This document shows positions 26,367-35,273 of a DNA stretch of 64,000 nt, in pieces. The stretch comes from Woeseiaceae bacterium (GTDB lineage: Bacteria; Pseudomonadota; Gammaproteobacteria; Steroidobacterales; Woeseiaceae), in the NCBI GenBank assembly GCA_965232455.1, contig OZ246981.1, positions 3,963,911 through 4,027,910 on the forward strand. The letters are read 5' to 3'. The first letter of the stretch is position 1, and each line of letters opens with the position of its first letter. The notes beneath the pieces are model-generated. The model had not been told where the DNA came from and made no database searches. It worked only from the letters and a program-made list of their open reading frames with translations. The position numbers and the translations under genes were made by a program.

Positions 26367-26525
26367 CGCCAGCAAAGATGTTTCAATGGAGCGGCTATTA
26401 CCGGCGAAATAGCCCGGCTGTAAACCGGGTGCCTCTTGGCTGTGCGGGTTCACCAAACGCGCCAGCGTTTAGGACGCGCGAAGCGCGCCCCGCAGGGGTG
26501 AGAATCGGCGCCAGACGATTCTAAT
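26367..26525 (+). tRNA. tRNA-Tyr(GTA) interrupted by a 76-nt structured module in the T-loop
   Basis: Acceptor GGAGCGG/CTGCTCC, discriminator A and CCA. Anticodon arm CCCGG-CTGTAAA-CCGGG and a long variable arm. After GGTTCA the T-loop is split by AAACGCGCCAGCG...GATTCTAATC. Confidence 0.5.
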
Positions 26526-26603
26526 CAACTCCTACCTGCTCCACCACCCAGATGAGTCGTCCAGGCGACGACGGCGGACTGTTAATCCGCGCTGAGCGAG
26601 GTT
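26526..26603 (+). tRNA. tRNA-Asn(GTT)
   Basis: Acceptor CCCAGAT/ATCTGGG, anticodon arm GCGGA-CTGTTAA-TCCGC, T-arm CGAGG-TTCGAGT-CCTCG, encoded CCA. Directly abuts the previous tRNA. Confidence 0.7.
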
Positions 26604-26604
26604 C

Positions 26605-26678
26605 GAGTCCTCGATCTGGGGCCAAGGCTCTGTGGTGAAATGGGATCACATGCCCCTGTCACGGGCAATTCCGGGGAT
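26605..26678 (+). tRNA. tRNA-Asp(GTC)
   Basis: Acceptor GGCTCTG/TAGAGCC, D GTGA..TCAC, anticodon arm TGCCC-CTGTCAC-GGGCA, T-loop ATCGAAA, CCA. Confidence 0.75.
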
Positions 26679-26684
26679 CGAAAC

Positions 26685-26755
26685 CCCGTAGAGCCGCCAA
26701 ACAACTGTCCGGGTACGGGGTACAGCCGGTCCTTACAAGACCAGCTTGCTGAGTT
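26685..26755 (+). tRNA. tRNA-Val(TAC)
   Basis: Acceptor TGTCCGG/ACGGACA, anticodon loop CTTACAA, T-arm CTGAG-TTCGAGT-CTCAG, CCA. Confidence 0.55.
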
Positions 26756-26762
26756 CGAGTCT

Positions 26763-26848
26763 CAGACGGACAACCAGGTCTATGCGGGTGTGGCGGAAGC
26801 AGGCAGACGCGCCGGGTTCAGATTCCGGTGTCTCATGACGTGTGGTTT
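26763..26848 (+). tRNA. tRNA-Leu(CAG), class II
   Basis: Acceptor GCGGGTG/CACCCGT with G1:U72. Anticodon arm CCGGG-TTCAGAT-TCCGG, variable-arm hairpin GTC-TCAT-GAC, 86 nt, CCA. Confidence 0.55.
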
Positions 26849-26852
26849 CGAG

Positions 26853-26928
26853 GCCCTCCACCCGTACCAGATTGGGGGGTGCTCAAGGGTAAGCTGGTTT
26901 CCCTTGCAAGGAGACTGTATGCGCGGAG
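26853..26928 (+). tRNA. tRNA-Ala(TGC)
   Basis: Acceptor GGGGGGT/ATCCTCC with the G3:U70 identity pair. Anticodon loop CTTGCAA, T-arm CGCGG-AGCGTTA-CCGCG, CCA. Confidence 0.7.
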
Positions 26929-26934
26929 CGTTAC

Positions 26935-27066
26935 CGCGATCCTCCACCAGATGCTGCGGCCGTCGTTTAAAGGCCAGGACAACGGTTGTTGATTCGCGGC
27001 TTCGCCGCTCACCTTTCACGCGTACTCGCTGACGCTCGTACGCCTGTTGGACGATTATGCCGGGTT
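26935..27066 (+). tRNA. tRNA-like gene with about 55-nt internal insertion (identity unresolved)
   Basis: Acceptor GCGGCCG/TGGCCGT with two G:U pairs, T-arm CCGGG-TTCAAGT-CCCGC, CCA. The 132-nt length implies an intervening segment. Confidence 0.35.
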
Positions 27067-27067
27067 C

Positions 27068-27144
27068 AAGTCCCGCTGGCCGTACCACGCTCCTATCGTC
27101 TAGTCGGACCAGGACACCACTCTTTCAAGGTGGAGACCGGGGAT
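27068..27144 (+). tRNA. tRNA-Glu(TTC)
   Basis: Close match to the canonical tRNA-Glu body (GTCTAG..GGAC, CTTTCAA). T-loop variant ATCGTAG, CCA. Confidence 0.8.
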
Positions 27145-27150
27145 CGTAGC

Positions 27151-27219
27151 CCCGTAGGAGTACCAGACAATGTTGAGGTAGCCGAGGAGGCATTTGGACT
27201 GTGACCCCGACTCAGCGGT
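27151..27219 (+). tRNA. tRNA-His-like (GTG), atypical
   Basis: Anticodon loop CTGTGAC. Ambiguous 3' end, no G-1, one acceptor mismatch. Confidence 0.35.
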
Positions 27220-27220
27220 T

Positions 27221-27290
27221 CGAGTCCGCGCCTCACCCCACGATGCGGAGCTGGGAGTACACGCAGGCTGCAACCCTCCGTTCGACGGTT
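27221..27290 (+). tRNA. tRNA-Cys(GCA)
   Basis: Perfect acceptor GATGCGG/CCGCATC, anticodon loop CTGCAAC, T-arm GACGG-TTCGAGT-CCGTC, CCA, 70 nt. Confidence 0.55.
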
Positions 27291-27292
27291 CG

Positions 27293-27356
27293 AGTCCGTC
27301 CCGCATCTCCAACTCTCTGTAGCGTAATTTGGTGACCCGCCCGCAGGGTGAGCGCA
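27293..27356 (+). other. Stand-alone copy of the structured module flanked by a 7-bp terminal stem
   Basis: TCTCTGT...CCCGCAGGGTGAGCGCAGCGAATC...GCAGAGA. Same core as the T-loop inserts. Confidence 0.3.
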
Positions 27357-27367
27357 GCGAATCACTC

Positions 27368-27443
27368 CTGCCGCAGAGACCGGATAACTGCGCTGTAGCT
27401 CAACGGTCAGAGCATCCGTCTGATACACGGGAGGCAGGTGGTT
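27368..27443 (+). tRNA. tRNA-Ile(GAT)
   Basis: D GCTC-AACGGTCA-GAGC, anticodon arm TCCGT-CTGATAC-ACGGG, T GGTGG-TTCGACT-CCACT, CCA. U1:G72. Confidence 0.75.
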
Positions 27444-27444
27444 C

Positions 27445-27515
27445 GACTCCACTCAGCGCGACCACGCTTCGACTGTTAGTGCAGTCCCGTCGTTGCCATC
27501 GACCGGTGCCGGGTG
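27445..27515 (+). tRNA. tRNA-Gly(GCC)
   Basis: Perfect acceptor GCTTCGA/TCGAAGC, anticodon loop TTGCCAT, T-arm CCGGG-TGCGATT-CCCGG, CCA. Confidence 0.6.
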
Positions 27516-27516
27516 C

Positions 27517-27588
27517 GATTCCCGGTCGAAGCTCCACGCCCGACAAGCATTAACGGTGATGCACCGGCTTTGTAACCCGGAGAACGGG
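27517..27588 (+). tRNA. tRNA, probable Thr(TGT); no encoded CCA
   Basis: Acceptor GCCCGAC/GTTGGGC, T-loop ATCGTTA. The anticodon stem is imperfect. Confidence 0.35.
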
Positions 27589-27597
27589 GATCGTTAC

Positions 27598-27673
27598 CTC
27601 GGTTGGGCACAATACGATCGCGCAGTAGCTCAACGGTCAGAGCGGCACCCTCATAAGGTGCGAGGTGCGGGTT
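27598..27673 (+). tRNA. tRNA-Met(CAT)
   Basis: Anticodon arm GCACC-CTCATAA-GGTGC, T GCGGG-TTCAACT-CCCGC, CCA. C1:U72 mismatch. Confidence 0.75.
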
Positions 27674-27676
27674 CAA

Positions 27677-27819
27677 CTCCCGCCTGCGCTACCAGATACG
27701 GTGACCAACCGGATCGGAGTCTTCCCTGCGAAGGAAGACCGTGCAGGTTGGAACGCAAGCTTCGCTCGCTCACCGCCGCTATGCGGCGGTGTCTGTCGCA
27801 GCGCGTTGTGCTGCTCGGC
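27677..27819 (+). tRNA. tRNA-Arg(GCG) with 72-nt T-loop insert
   Basis: Acceptor ACGGTGA/TCGCCGT, anticodon arm TCTTCC-CTGCGAA-GGAAGA, T-stem GCAGG/CCTGC. The insert contains hairpin CCGCCGC-TAT-GCGGCGG. Confidence 0.5.
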
Positions 27820-27820
27820 T

Positions 27821-27893
27821 GAGTCCTGCTCGCCGTGCCAAACCCTCTCCGGTGGACCCGGTGGCGGCGCTTCGAACGCTGCTTAAGGAAGTT
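27821..27893 (+). tRNA. tRNA-Arg(TCG)
   Basis: Perfect acceptor ACCCTCT/AGAGGGT, anticodon loop CTTCGAA, T GGAAG-TTCGATT-CTTTC, CCA. Confidence 0.6.
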
Positions 27894-28173
27894 CGATTCT
27901 TTCAGAGGGTGCCAGATTCAAGGTGCTTCCTATCGAAGCCGGGCCACCAGACCCGTCGCAGATGCTGGGAGACGTAAGTCCGGGGGTGAAATACCCCTGA
28001 TTACTGAAGGCTGCGCTGTTTGGACAGCAAGCAGTCTTGAACCGCGACCGGCATAGTCGGCCGACAGAAGTACGAGCGTCAGCGAGCACGCCCGAAGGGT
28101 GAGCGGCGCTGCCGCGAATCAAAACTGGGCCGGTGGCAACGCCGATGTAGCTGAGAAGGATTAGCGCCGAGTT
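27894..28173 (+). other. Unresolved tRNA-like/structured block containing another module copy (28060-28125)
   Basis: Multiple hairpins (CCGGGGGTGAAATACCCCTG, TCGGCCGA). Module core CCCGAAGGGTGAGCGGCGCTGCCGCGAATC. No canonical cloverleaf recovered by eye. Confidence 0.3.
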
Positions 28174-28250
28174 GTAGCCGAGGCATCCTGACAATCCTCC
28201 GTAGCTCAAGCGGGCAGAGCACCGGGCTTTTAACCTGTGAGATGTCGGAT
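28174..28250 (+). tRNA. tRNA-Lys(TTT)
   Basis: Acceptor TCCTCCG/CGGGGGA, anticodon loop CTTTTAA, T-arm GTCGG-ATCGTGG-CCGAC, CCA. Confidence 0.7.
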
Positions 28251-28255
28251 CGTGG

Positions 28256-28345
28256 CCGACCGGGGGAACCAGACACGGAAGGTAAACCGGACAGGCGTGC
28301 CGGAGGCGGTTGCTACCCTACCTGATCGCTCACGCGGTTGTGATT
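28256..28345 (+). tRNA. Class II tRNA, probable Ser(GCT)
   Basis: Acceptor GGAAGGT/GCCTTCC, 90 nt, T-loop TTCGAGT, CCA. The anticodon stem is imperfect. Confidence 0.4.
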
Positions 28346-28351
28346 CGAGTT

Positions 28352-28422
28352 CACTGCCTTCCTCCAAACGCCACCTCGTGTGCTGGGCATAGACGAGATT
28401 CCAAACCTTGTCGTGTTGGGTT
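28352..28422 (+). tRNA. tRNA, probable Trp(CCA)
   Basis: Acceptor ACCTCGT/ACGGGGT, loop TTCCAAA, T TTGGG-TTCGATT-CCTGA, CCA. Confidence 0.4.
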
Positions 28423-28428
28423 CGATTC

Positions 28429-28499
28429 CTGAACGGGGTGCCAACCAATCGCGGTGTGTACAGGGTACCGACCGGATTCTGAGTCCGTGAGCGAGAGTT
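28429..28499 (+). tRNA. tRNA-Gln(CTG)
   Basis: Acceptor CGCGGTG/CACCGCT with a C1:U72 mismatch. Anticodon loop TTCTGAG, T GAGAG-TTCGAAT-CTTTC, CCA. Confidence 0.5.
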
Positions 28500-28654
28500 C
28501 GAATCTTTCCACCGCTACCAACCGGATGCGTCGAGATCAGGGATCGGAAGAGGCTTTGACCCTTGGAGATACGGTTCGAGTCCGTACGGCGCTGCCATGC
28601 TCCACTAGCCCAACCGGCGGAAGTGTCGGACTTAAACACCGTCAGGTCTAGGTT
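28500..28654 (+). other. Two tRNA-like units, unresolved
   Basis: Complete T-arms TACGG-TTCGAGT-CCGTA and GTCTA-GGTTCGAT-TAGAC, each followed by ...CCA. No matching 5' acceptor strands were found. Confidence 0.3.
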
Positions 28655-29019
28655 CGATTAGACGATGGCGTACCAGCTCTCGGTTTTTATCAAATTCAAG
28701 GTCATCGACTTCGGTCGGGGCCTCGTTTAGCGGCCTGGCGCTGCTAACCGTCGGCGACGGCGGGAAAGGAATGCAGCACTGCATTTCGCCGAGCCATTGC
28801 GCTCGGTCAATCCAGGCAAGTCCGGCCTCCCGAGTTCTCGATACGTCGGGAATAGCGGCGAAGTGATGCGGATGACTCGCATCGTTAGTCGTGAGGGGCA
28901 ACGGATAGTGCAGGTGTGCGAGCTTCGCAAACAAGTGCGCTTGTGCAGAAATCCGGGGAGTCGGCGTGCAGCCGACGTCCTGGCTTTCCGTCTAGTAGCC
29001 GGCGGGTGAAAGACATTCG

Positions 29020-29046: not shown

Positions 29047-29054
29047 CACCCCCC

Positions 29055-29129
29055 GCTGCGGTAGCTCAATGGCAGAGCGTCGGATTGTCGATCCGGAAGA
29101 TGTCGGTTCAAACCCGATCCGCAGCGCCA
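29055..29129 (+). tRNA. tRNA-Asp(GTC), second copy
   Basis: Perfect acceptor GCTGCGG/CCGCAGC, D GCTC..GAGC, loop TTGTCGA, T GTCGG-TTCAAAC-CCGAT, CCA. Confidence 0.7.
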
Positions 29130-29202: not shown

Positions 29203-29430
29203 ATGAATATCAAGGACATCGTGAAAGACAATACCGTTCGATTCGTCCGGTATCGCCAGGGGGTCGCTTACTACGGCGTCAGCGTACCCACCGAAGGCGA
29301 CTACATCTTTCCCGTTCCGCTCGAGGATATTGGGGACGCCACCCTCGAGCTCGAAGACAAAGCGATCCTGTTCATGCGCTACATCCGACGCGCAATCGGA
29401 GAAGGGTCGTTCGTTCCTCTGGCGTCGTAA
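29203..29430 (+). CDS. Small hypothetical protein (75 aa) embedded in the tRNA array
   Basis: GGAGG RBS 6 nt before the ATG. Clean ORF MNIKDIVKDNTVRFVRYRQGVAYYGVSVP... No recognisable similarity. Confidence 0.4.
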   Translation: MNIKDIVKDNTVRFVRYRQGVAYYGVSVPTEGDYIFPVPLEDIGDATLELEDKAILFMRYIRRAIGEGSFVPLAS

Positions 29431-29437
29431 CTTTTGT

Positions 29438-29513
29438 AGACCGGTAGCTCAGGAAGAAGAGCGCGCGACTGATATTCGCGAGGTCGGCTGTGCAACTCAG
29501 CCTCGGTCTACCA
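29438..29513 (+). tRNA. tRNA-Ile(GAT), second copy
   Basis: Acceptor AGACCGG/TCGGTCT, perfect anticodon arm CGCGA-CTGATAT-TCGCG, atypical T-loop TGCAACT, CCA followed by a T-run. Confidence 0.7.
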
Positions 29514-29519: not shown

Positions 29520-29731
29520 CTGGGAGTAGCTCAGGCTGGTCAGAGTACTCGGTTTGGACCCCAATTTGCCCACGTTGCCGAAAGAACGAAACGGATCGGT
29601 GCAAATTGATCTTTAGTGGAATATGCGGCAGTGCGCTTCCACTCGACCCACTAAAGATCAATCCGCATCCACCCTCTACTTTCTTTGGAAGCACTAGGGC
29701 GGATTGGGTTCGAATCCAGCCTTCCAGACCA
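29520..29731 (+). tRNA. tRNA-like gene interrupted by about 140 nt, including a 15-bp inverted repeat and the CTAAAGATCAATCCGCA element
   Basis: Acceptor CTGGGAG/CTTCCAG plus CCA. Canonical 5' D-arm GCTC-AGGCTGGTCA-GAGT. Internal IR ATTGATCTTTAGTGG...CCACTAAAGATCAAT. 3' GGGTTCGAATCC. Confidence 0.35.
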
Positions 29732-29740
29732 AATTCGAAG

Positions 29741-29971
29741 GGAGACTCGCAAGGTCGGCGTGCTTATCCGGTTTGATCCGAGGAGCGCGCAGCGCGACGA
29801 CAGACGCACGCAGTGCGCCCGCAGGGTGAGCGGCGCAGCCGCGAATCCACCCGGTGATGTCCTCACGGGCGTGGGGGTTCAACCGAGGCGCGTAGCGCCG
29901 ACAGACGGATTCGCGAAGCGAATGCCGCCCGAAGGGCGAGCGCAGCGAGTCCATCCCCTCAGTCTCCTCCA
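29741..29971 (+). tRNA. tRNA-like gene with two module insertions
   Basis: Acceptor GGAGACT/AGTCTCC plus CCA, T-stem GGGGG/CCCTC. Module copies at about 29795-29860 and 29882-29950 (cores CCCGCAGGGTGAGCGGCGCAGCCGCGAATCC and CCCGAAGGGCGAGCGCAGCGAGTC). Confidence 0.35.
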
Positions 29972-29980
29972 AAAGACGAT

Positions 29981-30056
29981 GGTGAGCCTAGCTTAACGGC
30001 AAAGCCCCAGGCCGTGACCCTGGTTGATACCGGTTCAAGTCCGGTGGTTCACCCCA
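29981..30056 (+). tRNA. tRNA-His(GTG)
   Basis: Encoded G-1 opposite C73. Acceptor GTGAGCC/GGTTCAC, perfect anticodon arm CCAGG-CCGTGAC-CCTGG, T ACCGG-TTCAAGT-CCGGT, CCA. Confidence 0.75.
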
Positions 30057-30060: not shown

Positions 30061-30184
30061 GGAGAAGTGGCCGAGTGGCTTAAGGCGCTCGTTAGCTAAA
30101 CTAGAGGGGCGCTGTGTTCCACCCAGGTTCGCACCGAGGAGCGTAGCGACGACAGGCCGAAGGCCCATCCTGGCTTCTCCTCCA
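30061..30184 (+). tRNA. Class II (Leu/Ser-type) tRNA with 34-nt insert in the T-loop
   Basis: Perfect acceptor GGAGAAG/CTTCTCC, class II D-arm GCCGAGTGGCTTAAGGC, T-stem CCAGG/CCTGG. T-loop TTCG-[CACCGAGGAGCGTAGCGACGACAGGCCGAAGGCC]-CAT, CCA. Confidence 0.45.
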
Positions 30185-30188
30185 ACAT

Positions 30189-30328
30189 CCGCCTGTAGCT
30201 CAGAAGGAGCAGAGCAGCTTGTTTGACTCGCTTCGTTCACCCTGCGGACGCACTGCGTGCTTCTGTTGGCGCTTTGCGCCTCGGTGCGAACCAGCAGGCC
30301 GGGGGTTCAAGTCCCTCCAGGCGCTCCA
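30189..30328 (+). tRNA. tRNA-like gene with about 65-nt insertion between anticodon region and T-arm
   Basis: D GCTC-AGAAGGAGC-AGAGC, T GGGGG-TTCAAGT-CCCTC, acceptor CCGCCTG/CAGGCGC with a 1:72 mismatch, CCA. Confidence 0.35.
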
Positions 30329-30332
30329 CTTT

Positions 30333-30406
30333 CCGCTCTTGGCATAGTGGCTGTGCACCTGGCTTTTACCCAGGTGACGGGAGTTCGATTCTCTCAGGGC
30401 GGACCA
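30333..30406 (+). tRNA. tRNA-Lys(TTT), second copy
   Basis: Acceptor CCGCTCT/AGGGCGG, perfect anticodon arm CCTGG-CTTTTAC-CCAGG, T GGGAG-TTCGATT-CTCTC, CCA. Confidence 0.7.
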
Positions 30407-30414
30407 CACAACAT

Positions 30415-30629: not shown

Positions 30630-30632
30630 TAT

Positions 30633-31429: not shown

Positions 31430-32572
31430 ATGTGGTTCATGCAAAAATTCATCGTGCGCAAGCACGAACGCGGTCTCCTGTTTAAGGACGGAGACTTCAT
31501 CAAGTTCCTGGAAGCAGGAACTTATCGCTACTTTGGCCTGCGCAGCCGCTACGCGGTAGAGCGTTTCGACCTGTCGGTCGCCGCGTTCGAGCACCGCCTG
31601 GCCGACTACCTGGTCGAGGCTGAACGCGCCGAGGTCGATCGTCTGTTTCACGTCGTTGAGACCCATGCCGACGAAGTCGCGCTGGTCTACCTCAACGAAC
31701 GTGCCGCAGCGATTCTCGGCCCGGCGGAGCGCAAGCTCTACTGGAAAGGCGTGGTTAAAGTTCGCATCGAACGCTTCGACCTCAATGAGGGCATCGCGCT
31801 GGATGCACGCCTGACCAAGCGCCTCGTCAACGGCCGCGATGCACAAGTGCTTGCGGTTGCGGGCAAGGCCGTCTACGCCCGCGTCGTTCCGGACGGTCAT
31901 GTTGGCCTGCTGTACGTTGACGGTGAACTCGCCGAAACCCTGGCGGCCGGCCTGCACGCCTACTGGAACGTTGCCCACGCCGTTGGCGTGGAGCTTGTGG
32001 ACCTGCGCGTCAAGGCACTGGAGGTTCAGGGCCAGGAAATCCTGACCAAGGACAAAGTGGCGCTGCGTATCAACGTGACCGCTACCTACCAGTACGTCGA
32101 CGCGGCGAAAGCCGTTCGCGCGGTCAAGGACCCGCTGGATCAGCTGTACAAAGAGATCCAGTTCGGTCTGCGCGCGGCGGTCGGTACCCGCAAGCTGGAC
32201 GCGCTGCTCGAGGATAAAACCGCAATCGACCGCGACATCGCGGATCACCTCGGCAAGCGTTTCGCTGAGATCGGCCTCAGCGTGATCAGCGTAGGCGTGA
32301 AAGACATCATCCTGCCCGGCGACATGAAGGACCTGCTGGGCAAGGTGGTGGAAGCCGAAAAAGCGGCACAAGCGAACGTCATTCGCCGCCGCGAAGAGAC
32401 CAACGCAACCCGATCACTTCTGAACACCGCAAAAGTGATGGAAAGCAACACCGTTGCGCTGCGTCTCAAGGAACTCGAGACCCTGGAGAAGGTTACTGAA
32501 AACGTCGGTAACCTGTCTGTCGTTGGTGGTCTCGACGGACTGCTGAATGGACTGGTGAACATCAAACAGTGA
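31430..32572 (+). CDS. SPFH/band-7 (slipin-like) domain protein
   Basis: GAAGGAGAA RBS before ATG 31430. Band-7 core and C-terminal coiled-coil typical of slipin/HflKC-like proteins. The longer six-frame ORF is trimmed. Confidence 0.65.
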   Translation: MWFMQKFIVRKHERGLLFKDGDFIKFLEAGTYRYFGLRSRYAVERFDLSVAAFEHRLADYLVEAERAEVDRLFHVVETHADEVALVYLNERAAAILGPAERKLYWKGVVKVRIERFDLNEGIALDARLTKRLVNGRDAQVLAVAGKAVYARVVPDGHVGLLYVDGELAETLAAGLHAYWNVAHAVGVELVDLRVKALEVQGQEILTKDKVALRINVTATYQYVDAAKAVRAVKDPLDQLYKEIQFGLRAAVGTRKLDALLEDKTAIDRDIADHLGKRFAEIGLSVISVGVKDIILPGDMKDLLGKVVEAEKAAQANVIRRREETNATRSLLNTAKVMESNTVALRLKELETLEKVTENVGNLSVVGGLDGLLNGLVNIKQ

Positions 32573-32581: not shown

Positions 32582-32619
32582 GGGAGGGTGTGCAACGCAC
32601 CCTCCCAACTTTTTCTACA
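32582..32619 (+). terminator. Rho-independent terminator
   Basis: 9-bp stem GGGAGGGTG/CACCCTCCC with a 7-nt loop, followed by AACTTTTT. Confidence 0.6.
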
Positions 32620-32628
32620 CGGCTGTAG

Positions 32629-32768
32629 CTCAGTGGACAGAGCGCGACTATGCGAAGGTCGAGGTCACAGGTTCACAAAACGCGCCAGCGATTTGGACGC
32701 ACATAGTGCGCCCCGAAGGGGCGAGAGTCGCCCATAGGCGATTCGAGTCAATCTTGTCAGCCGTACCA
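32629..32768 (+). tRNA. tRNA-Arg(GCG) with 66-nt module in the T-loop
   Basis: Perfect acceptor ACGGCTG/CAGCCGT, D GCTC-AGTGGACA-GAGC, anticodon arm CGACT-ATGCGAA-GGTCG. T-stem ACAGG/CTTGT with the loop split as TTCA-[66 nt]-AAT, CCA. Confidence 0.5.
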
Positions 32769-32776
32769 AACATTGA

Positions 32777-32903
32777 TCGGCGCTCGTCCAACGGCAGGAT
32801 GCGAGACTTTGAATCTCGAGATCGCGGTTCGCACCGAGGCGCGTAGCGCCGACAGACGCACGAAGTGCGCCCGCAGAGCAAGCGAAGCGAGTCAATCCAC
32901 GGC
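32777..32903 (+). tRNA. tRNA-Gln(TTG) with 56-nt module in the T-loop
   Basis: Acceptor TCGGCGC/GCGCCGG, perfect anticodon arm CGAGA-CTTTGAA-TCTCG. T-loop TTCG-[CACCGAGGCGCGTAGCGCC...GCGAGTC]-AAT, CCA. Confidence 0.5.
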
Positions 32904-33085
32904 GCCGGGCCAAATTCGTCCGCGTTGTTAATCGAGGATCCGATGGACAGCACGGATTTGTCTTTAGTGGTTTACGTGTAAGTGCGTCGGCGCCACTACC
33001 ACGAAAGTCGAAACAACCCCTGGGTCAGTCGTCTGACGGTAAGACGGCGGATTCGAGCGCCAAGGAACGAACTGCTAAAGAAACA

Positions 33086-33478
33086 TCATGGCTTAAATGT
33101 GACTACCAAAACGATCACCGTCACAAGCACCAATCCTAGTGGCAAGAGAAAATGCCCAATTGCCTCTGGATCGGTTGCTCCTGATGTGGAGCGGCGCAGC
33201 TTTCCTGCCAACACGCCGTGTAATCCAGACAGAATCAACACCAGAGGGATCTTTATCGCTAGCCAGGACTGTGCGAACCAGCCCCCCTGAACCGCGAGCA
33301 GGATGCCGAATACCCAGGCAGCCACCATAGCAGGCGACGTTATGATCCGATCATAAGTCTTCAGCTGTTTCAAGAACGATAGGACGGGGTGTCTCAAGGA
33401 TAGGGCCACAGCCACCATGCCACCGATCCACACAAACAACGACACCAAGTGTGCGGCTTTAGTGAGTGCATAAATCAT
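33086..33478 (-). CDS. Small multi-TM membrane protein (CopD/HemJ-like)
   Basis: Four predicted TM helices. Start overlaps the upstream stop by 4 nt. Confidence 0.35.
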   Translation of the reverse strand: MIYALTKAAHLVSLFVWIGGMVAVALSLRHPVLSFLKQLKTYDRIITSPAMVAAWVFGILLAVQGGWFAQSWLAIKIPLVLILSGLHGVLAGKLRRSTSGATDPEAIGHFLLPLGLVLVTVIVLVVTFKP

Positions 33479-33771
33479 TGTTGCGTGGATGCCTCCGTAC
33501 TTCGACCGCGTAGCCATCGTTCATTGACGAAACCGCCCATTGGAATCAGGGCACCGACGAACAATCGGAAGGCCCCTATTCCGTTGATTAGTCCCTCTGC
33601 CCAAGATCGCACAACAAACCAGAGGAACACCATGAACATCAGTCCATGCACTGGTCCCACAACGGAGACCACCCATGGATCTCCGACGATGTACTTGATC
33701 GGCATCGCGACGCAGAAAAGCGCTAACAGCGTCACAGCCTCAGCTAACGCTGCGCGCCGAAGACCCGTCAT
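33475..33771 (-). CDS. Small membrane protein (DUF3817-like)
   Basis: Two to three hydrophobic helices. No recognisable similarity. Confidence 0.35.
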   Translation of the reverse strand: MTGLRRAALAEAVTLLALFCVAMPIKYIVGDPWVVSVVGPVHGLMFMVFLWFVVRSWAEGLINGIGAFRLFVGALIPMGGFVNERWLRGRSTEASTQQ

Positions 33772-34000
33772 AGCGTGGTGCTAACTCCAAGCTTCGTTGT
33801 CAACTAAAAAACCTCGCGACATCGAATTCCCCGGGGTACAACCAATACCAACTCGCCACGTAGAGCGCTGAGAAAACTACGATTGAAATCGCGATCAGGA
33901 GACGGCGTTCTATAGCATTCATACTGGAAATAATGCTGGACATCGGATATGGCGTAAATGACAATGTTCCGACAATATCGGCCATAATCTCCTGGAGACA

Positions 34001-34999
34001 ATGAAGAAAGCAGCAGCTAATGCGAGGCGAGGCGTCCATCGGCGTGTCGTGTTTGTCGCATTTCCTCACGTTGTTCTGCTGGATCTGATTGGCCCGTGGG
34101 AAGTGTTCTCCCTAGCGAACAAACTCGCCGATAGAGATTCGCCACCGTACGATTTGGAACTGGTGAGCGGCGCTAATTCTGCGAAGATTCCCTCCGGCGG
34201 TGGGATTTCATTGGAAAGTCACCGACCGGCGAAGAACTGCCGGGGAGCTATCGATACGCTGATCGTTCCGGCGACTGATTGGGCGCGGGCCTCAGAGGCG
34301 CAACAATTCTCGTCCGTCTTACAGCGGCTGGCACAGCGGTCTCATCGTATCGTTTCAATCTGCGGCGGTGCTTTTCTCCTGGCAGAGGCTGGACTCCTTG
34401 ATGGCAAGAAAGCAACGACGCATTGGCGTGGAACTGAAGATTTGGCCACACGCTTTCCAAAGGTCGACGTTCAAGCCGACTCAATTTTTGTGAAGGACGG
34501 AAATACCTATACGTCTGCTGGTGTTACCGCAGGTATAGACCTTGCCCTAGCGCTTGTCGAAGAGGATCTTGGACAGGCAGTAGCACTGGATTGCGCCCGT
34601 AACCTGGTCGTTTTCATGCGTCGCCCGGGCGGACAGTCACAATTCAGCGCCACTTTGGAATCGCAACATGCTGAACGGGACGTCATCAACGAGTTGGTAG
34701 CGTGGGCCGCCGATAACCTCGGCAATGACCTTTCCGTTCAGGTACTGGCTGAGCGCGCTCACATGAGCCTACGCAACTTCTCTCGTGTTTTTCGAGCTGA
34801 GGTTGGTCAAACGCCTGCCGCATTCGTCGAAAAGCTGCGAGTGGACGCGACGCGGCAACGCCTCGAAGAGACGGACGAATCAATCGATGAGATCTCCAAG
34901 CACTGCGGCTTTCGCAGCGCAGACTCGATGAGGCGTTCATTTCAACGCGTCGTGAAAGTAGCTCCCAGTGACTACCGTCAACGGTTCCGCAGGCTTTGA
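34001..34999 (+). CDS. GlxA-family transcriptional regulator (DJ-1/PfpI domain plus AraC-type HTH)
   Basis: DJ-1-like N-terminus (SICGGAFLLAEAGLLDG) and C-terminal AraC HTH. Confidence 0.8.
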   Translation: MKKAAANARRGVHRRVVFVAFPHVVLLDLIGPWEVFSLANKLADRDSPPYDLELVSGANSAKIPSGGGISLESHRPAKNCRGAIDTLIVPATDWARASEAQQFSSVLQRLAQRSHRIVSICGGAFLLAEAGLLDGKKATTHWRGTEDLATRFPKVDVQADSIFVKDGNTYTSAGVTAGIDLALALVEEDLGQAVALDCARNLVVFMRRPGGQSQFSATLESQHAERDVINELVAWAADNLGNDLSVQVLAERAHMSLRNFSRVFRAEVGQTPAAFVEKLRVDATRQRLEETDESIDEISKHCGFRSADSMRRSFQRVVKVAPSDYRQRFRRL

Positions 35000-35111
35000 C
35001 ACCTTCATGCCCCTACTCCACGCCATACCGTCGGAGTTGTCGTCCCAGTGGGTTAATCCGAACCAAGGCTAGAAATCGCGACAATCATAAGATTGCCGAA
35101 ACGGCAAACTT

Positions 35112-35186
35112 ATTCCTGAATCGGCAGACAAAAGCACCGAGCTTCTAACTCGGGGATTGCAGGTTCAACTCCTGCCGGGGGTACCA
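35112..35186 (+). tRNA. tRNA-Arg(TCT)-like, weak acceptor
   Basis: Perfect anticodon arm CCGAG-CTTCTAA-CTCGG and T-arm GCAGG-TTCAACT-CCTGC plus CCA. The 5' acceptor ATTCCTG pairs only through three G:U wobbles. Confidence 0.35.
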
Positions 35187-35194
35187 AATACCAT

Positions 35195-35273
35195 GGCCGT
35201 CTGACGGGAATTAGGCATACCTACCTGTCTTAGAAACAGGTGTTTCTCGGTTCGACTCCGAGGGCGGCTACCA
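35195..35273 (+). tRNA. tRNA with anticodon TAG (Leu-reading) but a short variable arm
   Basis: Acceptor GGCCGTC/GGCGGCT, 6-bp anticodon stem ACCTGT-CTTAGAA-ACAGGT, T CTCGG-TTCGACT-CCGAG, CCA. Confidence 0.5.

What the first reader, a model, noticed from the sequence alone, without database searches (positions are those of the whole stretch)
26367..35273. Dense same-strand array of about 40 tRNA/tRNA-like genes with almost no spacers
The units are packed head-to-tail on the + strand. Tyr, Asn, Asp, Val, Leu, Ala, Glu, Cys, Ile, Gly, Met, two Arg and more all fall within the first 1.6 kb. Spacers are 0-8 nt and most units encode CCA. Several isoacceptors are duplicated (Asp, Ile, Lys, Gly, Val, His, Arg). 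Rare anticodons appear (Arg-GCG twice, a TAG anticodon with a short variable arm). Arrays like this are rare in bacterial chromosomes and typical of phages or mobile islands. The array is interrupted by an SPFH gene at 31.4 kb and resumes at 32.6 and 35.1 kb.
Basis: seen in the sequence. Interest (0 to 1): 0.75.

Follow-up and report, generated by a model that had tools for sequence, protein, structure and literature searches.

The report
Accessory tRNA gene array with repair genes
This is a real, long same-strand array of spare tRNA genes of a known horizontally spread kind, sitting in a marine-sediment gammaproteobacterial chromosome with an RNA-repair ligase, a nuclease and a membrane-scaffold gene, and about a third of its units are interrupted by tiny hairpin insertions.

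Summary
ARAGORN finds 19 tRNAs at default settings and 27 when relaxed, and Rfam finds 17. All are on the + strand, and 24 of the 27 encode CCA. Mapping against intact arrays in relatives identifies about 15 more interrupted, truncated or tRNA-like units, giving about 44.

The locus is a long tRNA array ("L-array") inside a conserved 13-kb module in Woeseiaceae-like genomes. The module order is HTH repressor, ORF105, terminator, arrays, ORF75, SPFH, arrays, HNH, RtcB. The window carries two array types in tandem, which explains the duplicated isoacceptors.

Intact units evolve under cloverleaf and anticodon constraint: 12-14% of changed pairs are broken, against 65-70% under the null. A 14-nt palindrome lies upstream of both the array and HNH-RtcB in about 20 genomes, and the two copies co-vary. 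The same HNH family flanks arrays in phages, megaplasmids and the Anabaena trn operon.

The "tRNA-like" units are mostly tRNAs split by 35-75-nt multi-hairpin elements. These insert seamlessly at TCR|A, usually at T-loop position 57|58.

The likely function, by analogy only, is a repressor-controlled back-up tRNA supply with RtcB repair. This is a new member of a known kind, with some unusual extras.

The parts
25430..25828 (+). HTH (XRE/CI/DicA-like) candidate repressor, 132 aa; first gene of the conserved module
   Evidence: It matches Pfam HTH_31/HTH_26 weakly, phage repressor family phrog_4 at E=5e-10 and NCBIfam DicA weakly. It is 67-93% identical in 11 related loci at the same position.
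25777..26094 (+). ORF105, conserved protein of unknown function
   Evidence: tblastn finds it in 11 loci. It matches no protein family.
26095..26195 (+). Alternative-hairpin (attenuator-like) region followed by an intrinsic terminator (CCCCGGT...ACCGGGG followed by a T run), directly after the ORF105 stop codon
   Evidence: Terminator scan, conservation in the alignment and reading of the sequence. The attenuator reading is inference.
26215..26228 (+). Operator-like palindrome O1, ACAATGTGGATTGT, upstream of the array
   Evidence: It is present at the same position in about 15 loci and co-varies with O2.
26249..26353 (+). Conserved structured leader closed by the long-range stem CGTTGGGGCAG / CTGCCCCAACG
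   Evidence: The alignment shows compensatory changes in L039 and L015. Its function was not tested.
26389..26546 (+). tRNA-Tyr(GTA) interrupted in the T-loop by a hairpin element (about 26454-26526)
   Evidence: Orthology to L002 Tyr. 21 of 22 pairs are canonical after in-silico excision. nhmmer finds the element copy.
26547..26949 (+). Packed run: Asn(GTT) 26547-26624, Asp(GTC) 26626-26699, Val(TAC) 26706-26776, Leu(CAG) 26784-26869, Ala(TGC) 26874-26949
   Evidence: ARAGORN calls. Orthologs are 88-97% identical in L002 and L009.
26956..27088 (+). Glu-like tRNA interrupted in the anticodon loop by a reversed, partly deleted hairpin element (about 26989-27057)
   Evidence: Inverted repeat I1. 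The 3' part matches L009 Glu(TTC). The acceptor stem GCGGCCG/TGGCCGT was read from the sequence.
27089..27311 (+). Packed run: Glu(TTC) 27089-27165, His(GTG) 27172-27239, Cys(GCA) 27242-27311
27313..27385 (+). Remnant of tRNA-Pro(TGG) carrying a partial hairpin element (27338-27363)
   Evidence: The L009 Pro 5' part matches 27313-27343. nhmmer gives a partial element hit.
27389..27694 (+). Packed run: Ile(GAT) 27389-27464, Gly(GCC) 27466-27536, Thr(TGT) 27538-27610, Met(CAT) 27619-27694
27698..27841 (+). tRNA-Arg(GCG) interrupted in the T-loop by a reversed hairpin element (about 27753-27820)
   Evidence: L002 and L141 carry the uninterrupted 73-nt gene at this position. The 7-bp acceptor stem was read from the sequence.
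27842..27914 (+). tRNA-Arg(TCG)
   Evidence: 94-96% identical to the default ARAGORN Arg(TCG) calls in L002 and L009. In the window itself it is called only at very relaxed settings.
27915..28179 (+). Degenerate stretch: a Ser(TGA)-like tRNA with a hairpin element after CTTGA (28048-28122) and its 3' end deleted, then the 5' half of tRNA-Phe(GAA) (28141-28179)
   Evidence: Alignment with L002, L009 and L141, and the element copy.
28195..28676 (+). Packed run: Lys(TTT) 28195-28271, Ser(GCT) 28277-28366, Trp(CCA) 28373-28443, Gln(CTG) 28450-28520, Gln(TTG) 28527-28597, degenerate Leu(TAA) 28599-28676
   Evidence: Leu(TAA) is assigned by homology to L011 725-801.
29055..29129 (+). tRNA-Asp(GTC), first unit of the second (type-2) array
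29203..29430 (+). ORF75, a small protein gene embedded in the array
   Evidence: Translation. It matches phrog_20427 at E=4e-16 and is conserved in 7 loci.
29438..29513 (+). tRNA-Ile(GAT)
29520..29735 (+). tRNA-Pro(TGG) disrupted by an insertion of about 140 nt from a second element family (inverted repeats ...TTGATCTTTAGTGG / CCACTAAAGATCAA...)
   Evidence: L004 Pro residues 1-39 and 54-78 flank the insert. Repeats D14 and I6.
29741..29974 (+). tRNA-Ser(TGA) with two hairpin elements: one after the anticodon (29777-29848) and one in the T-loop (about 29881-29949)
   Evidence: 22 of 22 pairs are canonical after excision. Relatives show filled and empty sites.
29982..30056 (+). tRNA-His(GTG)
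30061..30187 (+). tRNA-Ser(GCT) with a shortened 34-nt hairpin element in the T-loop (30132-30165)
   Evidence: 24 of 25 pairs are canonical after excision. L142 has a full-length element at the same site.
30189..30331 (+). tRNA-Arg(TCG) with a reversed hairpin element in the anticodon loop (30225-30286); C1.C72 and one anticodon-stem pair are broken
30333..30489 (+). tRNA-Lys(TTT) 30333-30406 and tRNA-Gly(GCC) 30415-30489
30490..30632 (+). Remnant unit that replaces the Met(CAT) of relatives; it carries a duplicate of the second-family element end plus a Pro-like 3' half ending in CCA
   Evidence: Repeats D5 and D14. L004 has Met(CAT) at this position.
30633..30709 (+). tRNA-Val(TAC)
30821..30892 (+). 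'Y' tRNA-like element, read by ARAGORN as Arg(TCT); it has no CCA, a mismatched 1-72 pair and a free anticodon, and always lies about 400 nt upstream of SPFH
30893..30960 (+). Conserved hairpins plus a T-arm-like hairpin (GCGGTTCGAGTCCGC)
   Evidence: Alignment and T-arm scan.
31267..31280 (+). Extended Shine-Dalgarno sequence AAAGGAGGTGATCC upstream of the SPFH gene
   Evidence: The core AAAGGAGGTGATC is invariant in 12 loci. Its complementarity to the 16S rRNA 3' end rests on established knowledge.
31274..32572 (+). SPFH/Band-7 protein gene; the likely true start is the GTG at 31283
   Evidence: Pfam PF01145 at E=2e-27. It is present in 24 related loci and has 486 metagenome relatives, mostly inside arrays.
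32582..32606 (+). Intrinsic terminator after the SPFH gene
32619..32768 (+). tRNA-Arg(GCG) with a hairpin element in the T-loop (about 32675-32748)
   Evidence: Excision restores a default ARAGORN call. 21 of 21 pairs are canonical.
32777..32915 (+). tRNA-Gln(TTG) with a hairpin element in the T-loop (about 32832-32893)
32916..35111 (.). Window-specific insertion that replaces Trp, Cys and Ile(TAT); it carries a UPF0093 ORF (33086-33517, - strand) and an AraC/DJ-1 regulator (34001-34999, + strand), bounded by inverted repeats 32953-33004 and 35284-35335
   Evidence: These ORFs have no homolog in any related locus. Pfam assignments. Inverted repeat I4. Unit order in L004.
35112..35273 (+). tRNA-Arg(TCT) 35112-35186 (5' part degenerate) and tRNA-Leu(TAG) 35195-35273 (79 nt, short variable arm)
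35398..35616 (+). 219-nt tRNA-like structured RNA with a G3:U70 acceptor stem, a T-arm and an encoded CCA; unclassified
35626..35639 (+). Operator-like palindrome O2, ACGATCCACATTGT (reverse complement of O1 with one mismatch), just upstream of the HNH gene
35636..36220 (+). HNH endonuclease of the family that flanks tRNA arrays
   Evidence: Pfam HNH_5/HNH and phrog_16726. Array-linked homologs in phages, plasmids and Nostoc.
36239..37648 (+). RtcB RNA ligase
   Evidence: Pfam PF01139 at E=6e-88 and phrog_1075. Relatives are 80-95% identical and lie downstream of arrays.
37675..38598 (+). ORF307, a hypothetical protein; optional last gene of the module
   Evidence: About 54% identical homologs follow RtcB in 6 loci. 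It belongs to a widespread family with no known domain, and that family is not array-linked elsewhere.

Best explanation
**What it is.** The region is an accessory long tRNA gene array (an 'L-array' or 'tRNA array unit') embedded in a compact module of about 13 kb. The module is horizontally mobile and occurs in Woeseiaceae-like gammaproteobacteria. Its order is: HTH repressor, ORF105, terminator, operator O1 plus a structured leader, tRNA array, ORF75, more array, tRNA-like element Y, SPFH gene, more array, operator O2, HNH endonuclease, RtcB RNA ligase, and sometimes ORF307.

**This genome's copy.** It carries two array types in tandem:
- Type 1 (26389-28676) has about 25 compact tRNAs, often with a short D-arm.
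- Type 2 (29055-35273) has conventional tRNAs.

This arrangement explains the duplicated isoacceptors.

**Interrupted units.** About a third of the units are interrupted or truncated. Most interruptions come from a family of 35-75-nt elements, each built from 2-4 GC-rich hairpins with GNA loops. These elements insert seamlessly at TCR|A. The usual site is between T-loop positions 57 and 58. Occasionally the site is the same sequence in an anticodon loop or on the opposite strand.

**Proposed mechanism (inferred, not shown).**
- The HTH protein binds the two matching palindromes and keeps both the array and HNH-RtcB silent.
- Under a stress that damages or depletes tRNAs, or that stalls translation, the module is induced. 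Candidate stresses are ribotoxins, anticodon nucleases, phage infection and translation inhibitors.
- Once induced, the module supplies a near-complete spare set of CCA-bearing tRNAs.
- RtcB reseals cleaved tRNAs.
- The HNH nuclease is more likely a homing-type enzyme that spreads or maintains the array.
- The role of the SPFH protein is unknown.
For: **Shown: the array exists.** ARAGORN tRNAs at default and 27 when relaxed, all on the + strand, and 24 of 27 encode CCA.

**Shown: the module is conserved.**
- It has the same parts and order in more than 20 genomes.
- Hundreds of metagenome contigs carry SPFH relatives, mostly inside arrays.
- The flanking genes are never shared between genomes.
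- Some close RtcB relatives have no array at all: L014 and L022-L029.

**Shown: intact units are under selection.**
- Only 13.6% (type 1) and 11.8% (type 2) of changed base pairs are broken. The substitution null gives 70% and 65%, and the minimum over 1000 simulations was 41% and 49%.
- Paired sites change half as often as unpaired sites.
- The anticodon is identical in 28 of 31 (type 1) and 49 of 49 (type 2) ortholog comparisons.

**Shown: two matching operator-like sites.**
- The 14-nt palindrome occurs exactly twice in the window, upstream of the array and upstream of HNH.
- It occurs at the same two positions in about 20 loci.
- The two copies are exact reverse complements in L012, L013 and L021.
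- The chance expectation is 0.6 matches per 171 kb.

**Shown: the HNH family accompanies arrays elsewhere.**
- About 35 of 59 phage loci have at least 12 same-strand tRNAs within 10 kb of the HNH homolog.
- Methylibium RPME01 has 27 tRNAs beside it and a Variovorax plasmid has 42.
- The Nostoc PCC 7120 trn operon has 24 tRNAs, and its HNH is 42% identical over residues 84-160.

**Shown: the elements behave as seamless insertions.**
- All 8-9 copies in the 64-kb window lie inside the array.
- Only 4 copies occur in 1.1 Mb of related genome loci, and 11 in 0.57 Mb of metagenome array loci. All three whose context I checked lie in array tRNA genes, and 8 of the 11 metagenome copies follow a T-loop GTTCR.
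- Filled and empty sites alternate among the window, L142, L143 and L004 without any footprint.
- Excision in silico restores complete cloverleafs.

**From the literature.**
- L-arrays spread by horizontal transfer and occur in all classes of Proteobacteria. HNH and rtcB are neighbours or co-regulated genes, and the arrays are induced by translational stress (PMC8421152).
- The TrcR regulon of Anabaena comprises the trn operon, rtcB, two HNH genes and a slipin (SPFH) gene (PMC10272220).

**Further support.** In L004 the array's Phe tRNA is only 80% identical to a stand-alone tRNA-Phe in the same locus.
Against: - No expression, processing or aminoacylation data exist, so the function rests on analogy with Anabaena and with RtcB biochemistry.
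- The regulator here is an HTH protein, not the ribbon-helix-helix TrcR. Its binding to O1 and O2 was not tested, and I found no convincing sigma-70 promoter next to O1.
- In this genome Tyr, Pro and Phe have no intact copy, and 15 or so units are disrupted. The local copy may therefore be partly decaying.
- Type-1 tRNAs score poorly or not at all with the Rfam tRNA model.
- I found no integrase or att sites, so the mobility mechanism is not shown.
- Whether the array is supernumerary to a housekeeping set in this genome could not be checked.
Confidence: 0.75

Rival explanations
1. The array is selfish cargo or a decaying relic. On this view it is carried along by a homing HNH endonuclease or by an old phage or plasmid insertion. 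It would contribute nothing to the cell and would be eroding under deletions and insertion elements.
For: - About 15 of about 44 units are interrupted, truncated or degenerate.
- Relative to L004, L002 and L141 the window has lost several units: Glu, Met, Trp, Cys, Ile(TAT), three Leu, Lys(CTT) and the 3' half of Phe.
- A 2.2-kb foreign insertion sits inside the array.
- L014 has lost the whole array but keeps RtcB.
- Published L-arrays were long thought to be cryptic (PMC8421152).
Against: - Intact units show strong purifying selection on both pairing and anticodon.
- The module architecture, the two co-varying operators and the invariant SPFH ribosome-binding site are conserved across many species.
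- Exons of interrupted genes are still intact.

Partial decay in this one genome is compatible with the main explanation.
Confidence: 0.2
2. The region is a remnant of a prophage, or of a phage-derived island, whose tRNA cluster was left behind.
For: - HNH homologs lie next to large tRNA arrays in many IMG/VR phage contigs.
- ORF75 matches phrog_20427, the HTH protein matches phage repressor phrogs and RtcB matches phrog_1075.
- The anticodon set (Arg-GCG, Ile-TAT) is unusual for a bacterial housekeeping set, though that judgement is from my own knowledge of tRNA sets.
Against: - There is no near match in 50,697 phage records.
- The window has no structural, integrase or lysis genes.
- GC content and tetranucleotide usage resemble the flanks.
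- The same compact module, with no phage genes, recurs in many Woeseiaceae chromosomes.
- SPFH and RtcB are almost never found in the phage loci.
Confidence: 0.15
3. The hairpin insertions are intervening sequences removed from the pre-tRNA. The halves would then be joined by the adjacent RtcB, giving protein-dependent tRNA splicing in a bacterium.
For: - The position is precise and recurrent (T-loop 57|58), and the orientation in T-loops is mostly sense, across diverged arrays.
- Exons keep 95-100% of their base pairs.
- The Ser(GCT) insertion is shared with L142 while the exons stay identical.
- RtcB lies next door, and RtcB is the tRNA splicing ligase of archaea and metazoa (established knowledge).
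Against: - At least three copies are in reverse orientation. These are the Arg(TCG) anticodon loop, the Arg(GCG) T-loop at 27753-27820 and the copy at 26989-27057. RNA-level logic does not explain reversed copies, but a DNA target on the other strand does.
- Most arrays with HNH and RtcB have no insertions at all, for example L004, L007 and L015.
- The ends of the element do not pair with each other or with the exons to give a bulge-helix-bulge motif. This rests on reading the sequence only.
- C-GNA-G mini-hairpins are typical of elements that act as single-stranded DNA.
- HNH nucleases leave 5'-phosphate and 3'-OH ends, which RtcB cannot join (established biochemistry).
- The anticodon-interrupted Arg(TCG) copy shows decay.
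Confidence: 0.07
4. The region is an assembly or binning artefact that collapsed tRNA genes from several places into one.
For: None, beyond the repetitive nature of tRNA sequences.
Against: Orthologous arrays with the same gene order occur in more than 20 independent assemblies, including complete chromosomes (OZ244928, OZ246973, OZ245053) and a 1.38-Mb metagenome contig.
Confidence: 0.01

Closest known systems
L-arrays, in particular the trn operon of Anabaena/Nostoc sp. PCC 7120 and its TrcR regulon (PMC8421152, PMC10272220)
   Same: - It is a long same-strand array of 20 or more tRNA genes that mostly encode CCA.
- Its distribution is patchy and horizontal.
- An HNH endonuclease of the same family lies directly beside the array: 42% identity over the HNH core, similar protein size and the same domain position.
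- RtcB and an SPFH/slipin protein belong to the same functional set.
- A shared operator motif lies in front of the array and in front of HNH-RtcB, which mirrors the repeats shared by the trn, all8564 and rtcB promoters.
   Different: - Here all the parts are physically clustered in one 13-kb module. In Anabaena they are dispersed between a plasmid and the chromosome.
- HNH lies downstream of the array, not upstream.
- The candidate regulator is an HTH (XRE/CI-like) protein. TrcR is a ribbon-helix-helix protein and is reported as restricted to cyanobacteria.
- Two array types lie in tandem.
- There are many T-loop insertion elements.
- Inducibility has not been tested.
tRNA array units of Acidithiobacillus, Firmicutes and Mycobacterium (PMC4758250, PMC5966550)
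   Same: It meets the operational definition of at least 20 tRNA genes at 2 or more per kb. It covers nearly all amino acids and is associated with mobile DNA.
   Different: It lies in a different lineage (Woeseiaceae-like Gammaproteobacteria). It has embedded SPFH, RtcB and HNH genes, and it has no visible ICE, plasmid or phage backbone.
Phage tRNA clusters with HNH or Seg homing endonucleases, such as T5 and T4 SegB (as cited in PMC8421152; T5 details from my own knowledge)
   Same: The HNH family is shared with many IMG/VR phage arrays. Small ORFs are interspersed among the tRNAs, and ORF75 is a phage protein family.
   Different: The locus is chromosomal and has no phage genes around it. 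RtcB and SPFH are essentially absent from the phage loci.
RtcBA RNA-repair operon of E. coli and Salmonella
   Same: It has an RtcB ligase that presumably reseals tRNA or rRNA cut by ribotoxins.
   Different: The module has no RtcA, no sigma-54 activator RtcR and no Rsr/Y-RNA partners. Regulation appears to be by repression at a palindrome.
IS200/IS605-derived miniature elements (PATEs) and REP/RAYT elements, as the closest analogue of the hairpin insertions (my own knowledge, not tested by homology)
   Same: They are small and non-coding and are built from stable hairpins. They insert at a short specific sequence without target duplication, and the empty sites in relatives are seamless.
   Different: - No Y1 transposase was seen.
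- The copies found lie in or beside tRNA arrays, and the junctions I read are in tRNA genes or tRNA remnants; none is in the 51 kb of non-array sequence in the window.
- The target is the conserved T-loop sequence.
- Homing driven by the neighbouring HNH is an untested alternative.

Membership tests
tRNA array unit (Tran et al. 2015, PMC4758250) | At least 20 tRNA genes in one region | tested here: met
   ARAGORN at default. Two more places reach the Rfam gathering score (32777-32846 and 35112-35183), giving 21. Relaxed ARAGORN. The criterion is borderline with a single strict caller.
tRNA array unit (Tran et al. 2015, PMC4758250) | Density of at least 2 tRNA genes per kb | tested here: met
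   There are 18 default calls in 26547-30892 (4.35 kb), or 4.1 per kb. There are 21 over 26547-35273 (8.7 kb), or 2.4 per kb.
L-array (Santamaria-Gomez et al. 2021, PMC8421152) | Genes in the same orientation and close enough to be co-transcribed; the array is long and not periodic | tested here: met
   All units are on the + strand. Packed runs have 0-8 nt spacers. Internal terminators appear only after ORF105 and after SPFH. There is no periodic unit: two different arrays lie in tandem.
L-array (Santamaria-Gomez et al. 2021, PMC8421152) | Patchy distribution and horizontal spread | tested here: met
   The module is present in many but not all genomes with a closely related RtcB. Its flanks are unrelated in every locus. 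Related HNH-linked arrays occur on phages and megaplasmids. The transfer mechanism itself was not shown.
L-array (Santamaria-Gomez et al. 2021, PMC8421152) | Contributes supernumerary tRNAs on top of a housekeeping set | not testable with these tools
   Only 64 kb of this genome is available. In the related locus L004, a separate stand-alone tRNA-Phe is 80% identical to the array copy.
L-array (Santamaria-Gomez et al. 2021, PMC8421152) | Neighbouring HNH homing-type endonuclease related to all8564 | tested here: met
   BLASTP against the HNH next to the Nostoc PCC 7120 trn operon gives 42% identity over residues 84-160 at E=4e-18. That locus has 24 tRNAs.
L-array (Santamaria-Gomez et al. 2021, PMC8421152) | Silent under standard conditions and induced by translational stress | not testable with these tools
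   There are no expression data. Only paired operator-like palindromes and a repressor-like HTH gene support regulated expression.
TrcR regulon (PMC10272220) | Control by the ribbon-helix-helix repressor TrcR and its motif ATACTACACTTGTATTAC | tested here: not met
   The candidate regulator has an HTH (XRE/CI-like) domain. The conserved motif here is ACAATGTGGATTGT. The paper states that TrcR is confined to cyanobacteria. The locus works like this regulon but is not a member.
RtcBA repair operon | RtcB together with RtcA cyclase and the sigma-54 activator RtcR | tested here: not met
   The neighbours of RtcB are HNH and ORF307. No module protein matches an RtcA or RtcR family.
IS200/IS605-type miniature element (for the hairpin insertions) | Hairpin-forming ends; insertion next to a short specific sequence without target duplication; seamless empty sites | tested here: met
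   Junctions of about 20 copies read TCR|A, mostly GGTTCR|A. Filled and empty orthologous sites carry no footprint. Excision restores the cloverleafs.
IS200/IS605-type miniature element (for the hairpin insertions) | A cognate Y1 (TnpA or RAYT) transposase in the genome | not tested
   None was seen among the Pfam-scanned ORFs of the window. The rest of the genome is unavailable.
Archaeal-type tRNA intron | Bulge-helix-bulge motif at the exon-intron junctions and a splicing endonuclease | tested here: inconclusive
   Reading the junctions shows that the elements are strings of local hairpins with no pairing to the exons. I ran no formal motif search and no EndA search.
tmRNA (for the 219-nt RNA at 35398-35616) | Match to tmRNA models, and a tag reading frame | tested here: not met
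   The ARAGORN tmRNA search is negative. The Rfam tmRNA model gives 11 bits against a gathering score of 47. Only the G3:U70 acceptor stem, the T-arm and the CCA resemble tmRNA.

The most novel reading that the evidence does not exclude
The multi-hairpin insertions at T-loop position 57|58 (and in some anticodon loops) may not be dead-end disruptions. They could be tolerated intervening sequences that are cut out of the pre-tRNA, with the halves rejoined by the adjacent RtcB. That would be a protein-dependent tRNA splicing system in bacteria. A weaker version is that they are a new class of homing mini-elements copied into T-loop DNA after cleavage by the array's own HNH endonuclease.
Probability: 0.08. 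Interest if true: 0.9.

Novelty: new member of a known kind. Interest (0 to 1): 0.5.

Why it matters
Long accessory tRNA arrays are known, but their function is understood in only one cyanobacterium. There the array, rtcB, HNH genes and a slipin gene form a dispersed regulon that responds to translational stress.

Here the same four components are fused into one compact module. It has paired, co-varying operators and occurs in an abundant group of marine-sediment bacteria. This is independent comparative support that spare tRNAs, an RNA ligase, an HNH nuclease and an SPFH protein work together. It also gives a simple operon-sized unit to test.

The T-loop-specific seamless mini-insertions, the tRNA-like element with a free anticodon in front of SPFH, and the 219-nt tRNA-like RNA are undescribed as far as I could find. 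Each is cheap to test by tRNA-seq.

Tried and rejected
- **Near-identity search against 50,697 phage records.** Only a 40-nt tRNA-Thr match came back, so the region is not a known phage.
- **PADLOC defence models.** Only weak HNH (PtuB-like) hits appeared and no system was recognised.
- **GC content, GC skew and tetranucleotide usage of the module against its flanks.** No clear signal: GC is 0.58 against 0.60-0.61, and r is 0.90-0.91 for short segments.
- **Direct or inverted repeats of at least 11 nt shared by the two module borders (att sites).** None were found.
- **Sigma-70 promoter scan.** No convincing promoter lies upstream of the array. The hit overlapping O2 probably lies inside or too close to the HNH coding start.
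- **TrcR-type regulator.** The regulator here is not ribbon-helix-helix, so I rejected membership.
- **ORF307.**
  - It has no family or solved-structure match.
  - It has 1333 homologs, all hypothetical.
  - A Desulfopila homolog is not near RtcB or tRNAs.
  - I therefore treat it as loosely linked.
  - The exact-sequence look-up of the window's own ORF307 failed.
- **ARAGORN with introns allowed.** It produced only implausible long-intron calls. Excision of the Tyr, 26956 and 27338 inserts did not restore calls at default stringency. Orthology was needed instead.
- **The 219-nt RNA as tmRNA.** Rejected on model scores.
- **First fetch of pCC7120delta (1-50000).** It missed the trn operon, which lies at 50-55 kb.
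- **Hypermutation at the Y anticodon.** I considered targeted hypermutation or diversifying selection. The more economical reading is that the loop is simply unconstrained, because synonymous divergence between these genomes is already high.

Full report

Yes. ARAGORN at default stringency finds 19 tRNA genes in the window. All are on the + strand. Eighteen lie in 26547-30892 and one is Leu(TAG) at 35195-35273. Relaxed thresholds raise this to 25-27. Rfam's tRNA model reaches its gathering score at 15-17 places. CCA is encoded in 24 of the 27 relaxed calls.

Spacers of 0-8 nt are real but hold only in four packed runs: 26547-26949, 27089-27311, 27389-27694 and 28195-28597. Elsewhere the gaps are 100-470 nt.

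A scan for T-arm-acceptor-CCA ends showed many more 3' ends than called genes. That observation led to the orthology analysis in section 4.

**2. Where is it, and is it conserved?**

The window looks like an ordinary Gram-negative chromosome. It encodes a TonB receptor, MacB/HlyD, a sigma-54 activator, Ser/Thr kinases and Met biosynthesis genes.

The gene just downstream of the array is an RtcB RNA ligase (36239-37648), and it is preceded by an HNH endonuclease gene (35636-36220). RtcB has relatives of 80-95% identity in Woeseiaceae and other gammaproteobacterial MAGs, including complete chromosomes. In about 15 of these, ARAGORN finds same-strand tRNA arrays directly upstream, with up to 28 tRNAs in L004.

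blastn and tblastn define a conserved module from about 25.4 to 38.6 kb:
- HTH protein (25430-25828)
- ORF105 (25777-26094)
- the arrays
- ORF75 (29203-29430)
- SPFH (31274-32572)
- HNH
- RtcB
- ORF307, in some genomes

Nothing outside the module is shared between loci. Some close RtcB relatives have no array: L014 and L022-L029. An SPFH query against metagenomes returned 486 relatives. Most contigs long enough to judge show arrays on both sides of SPFH. An assembly artefact is therefore excluded.

**3. Two arrays in tandem.**

The gene order in relatives shows two array types.

- Type 1 runs Tyr Asn Asp Val Leu Ala Glu Glu His Cys Pro Ile Gly Thr Met Arg Arg Ser Phe Lys Lys ... It is seen in L002, L009 and L141 and corresponds to window 26389-28676.
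- Type 2 runs Thr Tyr Phe Asn Ala | X | Asp Glu | ORF75 | Ile Pro Ser His Ser Arg Lys Gly Met Val | Y | SPFH | Arg(GCG) Gln Trp Cys Ile(TAT) Arg(TCT) Leu x4 | HNH RtcB. It is seen in L004, L007, L015 and L039 and corresponds to window 29055-35273.

This arrangement explains the duplicated isoacceptors.

Type-1 tRNAs are compact, at 68-71 nt, with 3-bp D stems, and they score poorly with Rfam. Type-2 tRNAs are conventional, except that their Leu tRNAs are only 77-79 nt long.

**4. What the 'tRNA-like' units are.**

I mapped every tRNA of L002, L009, L004 and L007 onto the window and aligned the gaps. The uncalled stretches turn out to be orthologous tRNA genes that are split or truncated:
- Tyr (26389-26546)
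- a Glu-like unit (26956-27088)
- a Pro remnant (27313-27385)
- Arg-GCG (27698-27841)
- a Ser-TGA remnant and a Phe 5' half (27915-28179)
- Pro (29520-29735)
- Ser-TGA (29741-29974)
- Ser-GCT (30061-30187)
- Arg-TCG (30189-30331)
- a remnant (30490-30632)
- Arg-GCG (32619-32768)
- Gln (32777-32915)

My total is about 44 units, so 'about 40' is fair once these are counted.

Relative to its relatives the window has lost Glu, Met, Trp, Cys, Ile(TAT), three Leu and Lys(CTT). It has gained a 2.2-kb insertion carrying an AraC/DJ-1 gene.

**5. The insertion elements.**

A family of 35-75-nt elements causes most of the splits. Each element is made of 2-4 GC-rich hairpins with GNA loops. An nhmmer profile finds 8-9 copies in the window, and all of them lie inside the array.

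The same profile finds only 4 copies in 1.1 Mb of related genome loci. It finds 11 in 0.57 Mb of metagenome array loci. All three whose context I checked lie in array tRNA genes, and 8 of the 11 metagenome copies follow a T-loop GTTCR.

The junctions read TCR|A:
- The usual site is GGTTCR|A, which is T-loop position 57|58 in the sense orientation.
- After TTGA in the anticodon loops of Ser(TGA).
- In reverse orientation when the motif lies on the other strand, as in the Arg-TCG anticodon loop CTTCG|AA and the Arg-GCG T-loop at 27753-27820.

Orthologous sites are filled in some genomes and cleanly empty in others. Different inserts occupy the same site in different genomes. Cutting the elements out in silico restores cloverleafs with 95-100% canonical pairs and restores default ARAGORN calls for three genes.

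I read these as DNA-level, seamless, site-specific mini-elements. They resemble IS200/IS605-type elements, or they may be homed by the neighbouring HNH. I do not read them as introns, for three reasons:
- Reversed copies exist.
- Most RtcB-linked arrays have none.
- The anticodon-interrupted Arg-TCG copy shows decay.

A second insertion family, with inverted repeats containing CTAAAGATCAATCCGC, disrupts Pro and borders the AraC insertion.

**6. Are the tRNAs functional RNAs?**

I compared each window tRNA with its orthologs in all fetched loci.

| Measure | Type 1 | Type 2 |
|---|---|---|
| Ortholog comparisons | 31 | 49 |
| Changed pairs that are broken, observed | 13.6% | 11.8% |
| Changed pairs that are broken, null mean | 70% | 65% |
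| Changed pairs that are broken, null minimum over 1000 simulations | 41% | 49% |
| Comparisons with the anticodon unchanged | 28 of 31 | 49 of 49 |

The null places the same number of substitutions at random among paired sites, using the substitution spectrum seen at unpaired sites. Paired sites change half as often as unpaired ones. The orthologs are not independent of each other, so these figures should be taken as strong but not formal evidence. Even the odd type-1 units are under structural and anticodon constraint.

**7. Regulation.**

A perfect palindrome, ACAATGTGGATTGT, lies at 26215-26228. It sits between the ORF105 terminator and a conserved structured leader. Its reverse complement, with one mismatch, lies at 35626-35639, just upstream of HNH.

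Both sites recur at the same two positions in about 20 loci. They co-vary within genomes and are exact reverse complements in L012, L013 and L021. Chance expectation is 0.6 matches per 171 kb. The first gene of the module encodes an HTH protein that resembles phage repressors.

I infer a repressor that controls both the array and HNH-RtcB. Binding has not been tested.

**8. Comparison with what is known.**

Long tRNA arrays that spread horizontally are described as 'L-arrays' in several phyla, including all classes of Proteobacteria. HNH endonuclease genes lie next to them, and rtcB is a neighbour or a co-regulated gene. The Anabaena array is silent until translation is impaired (PMC8421152). 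The TrcR regulon of Anabaena contains the trn operon, rtcB, two HNH genes and a slipin (SPFH) gene (PMC10272220).

I tested the link directly:
- The HNH here aligns with the HNH next to the Nostoc PCC 7120 trn operon: 42% identity over residues 84-160, E=4e-18, with 24 tRNAs alongside.
- Full-length homologs lie directly downstream of 27- and 42-gene arrays on Methylibium and Variovorax megaplasmids.
- Homologs lie next to arrays in about 35 of 59 IMG/VR phage loci.
- RtcB and SPFH are almost absent from those phage loci.

The locus is therefore a member of the L-array kind. It is not a member of the TrcR regulon, because its regulator belongs to a different family. It is not an RtcBA operon either, because it has no RtcA or RtcR.

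**9. How it most likely works.**

The following are shown:
- the anatomy of the module
- its conservation across genomes
- selection on the tRNAs
- the paired operators
- the HNH-array linkage

The following is inferred. The module is a repressed spare-tRNA-plus-repair unit. It is switched on when tRNAs are cut or depleted, or when translation stalls. The array refills or buffers the tRNA pool and RtcB reseals broken tRNAs. The HNH mainly serves spread or maintenance of the array. The role of SPFH is unknown, although it is the most tightly array-linked protein.

In this genome the copy is partly eroded. Tyr, Pro and Phe have no intact gene.

**10. Verdict.**

The array is a new member of a known kind. 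Interest is moderate at 0.5. It is raised by the integrated module with co-varying operators and by three undescribed side features: the T-loop mini-insertions, the free-anticodon tRNA-like element Y, and the 219-nt tRNA-like RNA.

The most novel reading still open is RNA-level removal of the insertions followed by RtcB ligation. I give it a probability of about 0.08.

Noticed in passing
window 30821-30892 (+); orthologs in L002-L021 and L141-L209: Tool evidence is. A tRNA-like element I call 'Y' always lies about 400 nt upstream of the SPFH gene. Across 44 distinct sequences, 95% of its cloverleaf pairs are canonical, with many compensatory changes. Pair 1-72 is canonical in only 9 of 44, and no CCA is encoded. 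U33 is present in only 20 of 44. The anticodon takes 19 different triplets, and the loop length sometimes varies. It is probably a non-decoding structural or processing element.
   Followed up: partly
window 35398-35616 (+); L001 3473-3693, L010 9140-9364, L002 9147-9375, L008 4023-4233, L141 13225-13444: Tool evidence is. A conserved 219-nt structured RNA lies just upstream of HNH. It has a 7-bp acceptor stem with G3:U70, discriminator A, an encoded CCA, a canonical T-arm and a D-arm-like hairpin. It also has an anticodon-like stem with a 15-17-nt loop, followed by about 130 nt of extra helices. RNAalifold predicts 70 pairs, 7 of them with compensatory changes. No Rfam family matches and the tmRNA models fail.
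   Followed up: partly
window 26215-26228 and 35626-35639: Tool evidence is. Paired 14-nt palindromes lie upstream of the array and upstream of HNH-RtcB. They are conserved and co-vary in about 20 genomes. They are candidate operators for the HTH protein encoded at 25430-25828.
   Followed up: yes
window 26095-26195 and 26249-26353: Tool evidence is. An attenuator-like set of mutually exclusive hairpins and an intrinsic terminator lie immediately after the ORF105 stop codon. Rfam reports a sub-threshold His_leader hit of 30.7 bits there. Further downstream is a conserved leader closed by an 11-bp long-range stem with compensatory changes.
   Followed up: partly
window 31267-31280: The sequence AAAGGAGGTGATCC lies in front of the SPFH gene, and its core AAAGGAGGTGATC is invariant in all 12 aligned loci. 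It is a 13-14-nt perfect complement to the 3' end of 16S rRNA, which is unusually long for a ribosome-binding site. The true start codon is probably the GTG at 31283.
   Followed up: no
window 29564-29706, 30547-30632, 32953-33004 / 35284-35390: A second small insertion family has inverted repeats containing CCACTAAAGATCAATCCGC and a GGGCGGATTGGG box. It disrupts tRNA-Pro, replaces part of the Met unit and brackets the window-specific 2.2-kb AraC/DJ-1 insertion.
   Followed up: partly
L004 4933-5007, L007 4938-5011, L010 4257-4330, L015 6632-6706, L012 5743-5813, L011 1304-1378: Type-2 arrays of relatives carry a second isolated tRNA-like unit, 'X', between two spacers of about 400 nt. It also has a variable anticodon: TCT, CCA, CCT, CGC or an abnormal loop. 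The unit, together with about 540 nt around it, is absent from the window (28870-29055).
   Followed up: partly
window 27089-27165; L002 4015-4091; L009 683-757: One type-1 'Glu' unit is 96-97% identical between genomes but carries a different anticodon in each. It is TTC in the window, CTC in L002 and TCA in L009, where it would read UGA.
   Followed up: no
window 35195-35273; L004 9046-9369: The Leu tRNAs of the type-2 array (TAG, TAA, CAA, CAG) are only 77-79 nt long and lack the long variable arm expected of bacterial tRNA-Leu. The type-1 Leu(CAG) at 26784-26869 is 86 nt long and has it.
   Followed up: no
window 22773-22860 (+): A c-di-GMP-I-GGC riboswitch aptamer scores 71.9 bits against a gathering score of 59, E=4.5e-15. 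It lies directly upstream of an ORF at 22859-24073 that encodes an AAA ATPase with an FHA domain.
   Followed up: no
L014 9217-11407: One relative has a stripped version of the module. ORF105 and its terminator are followed by the conserved non-tRNA spacer (equivalent to window 28684-29052) and then by RtcB. It has no tRNAs, no SPFH and no HNH.
   Followed up: no
window 172-3764 (+): Two adjacent genes encode a MAP3K_TRAF_bd/TPR-S protein and a CHAT-domain protein. This may be a conflict or signalling pair, and it appears unrelated to the array.
   Followed up: no
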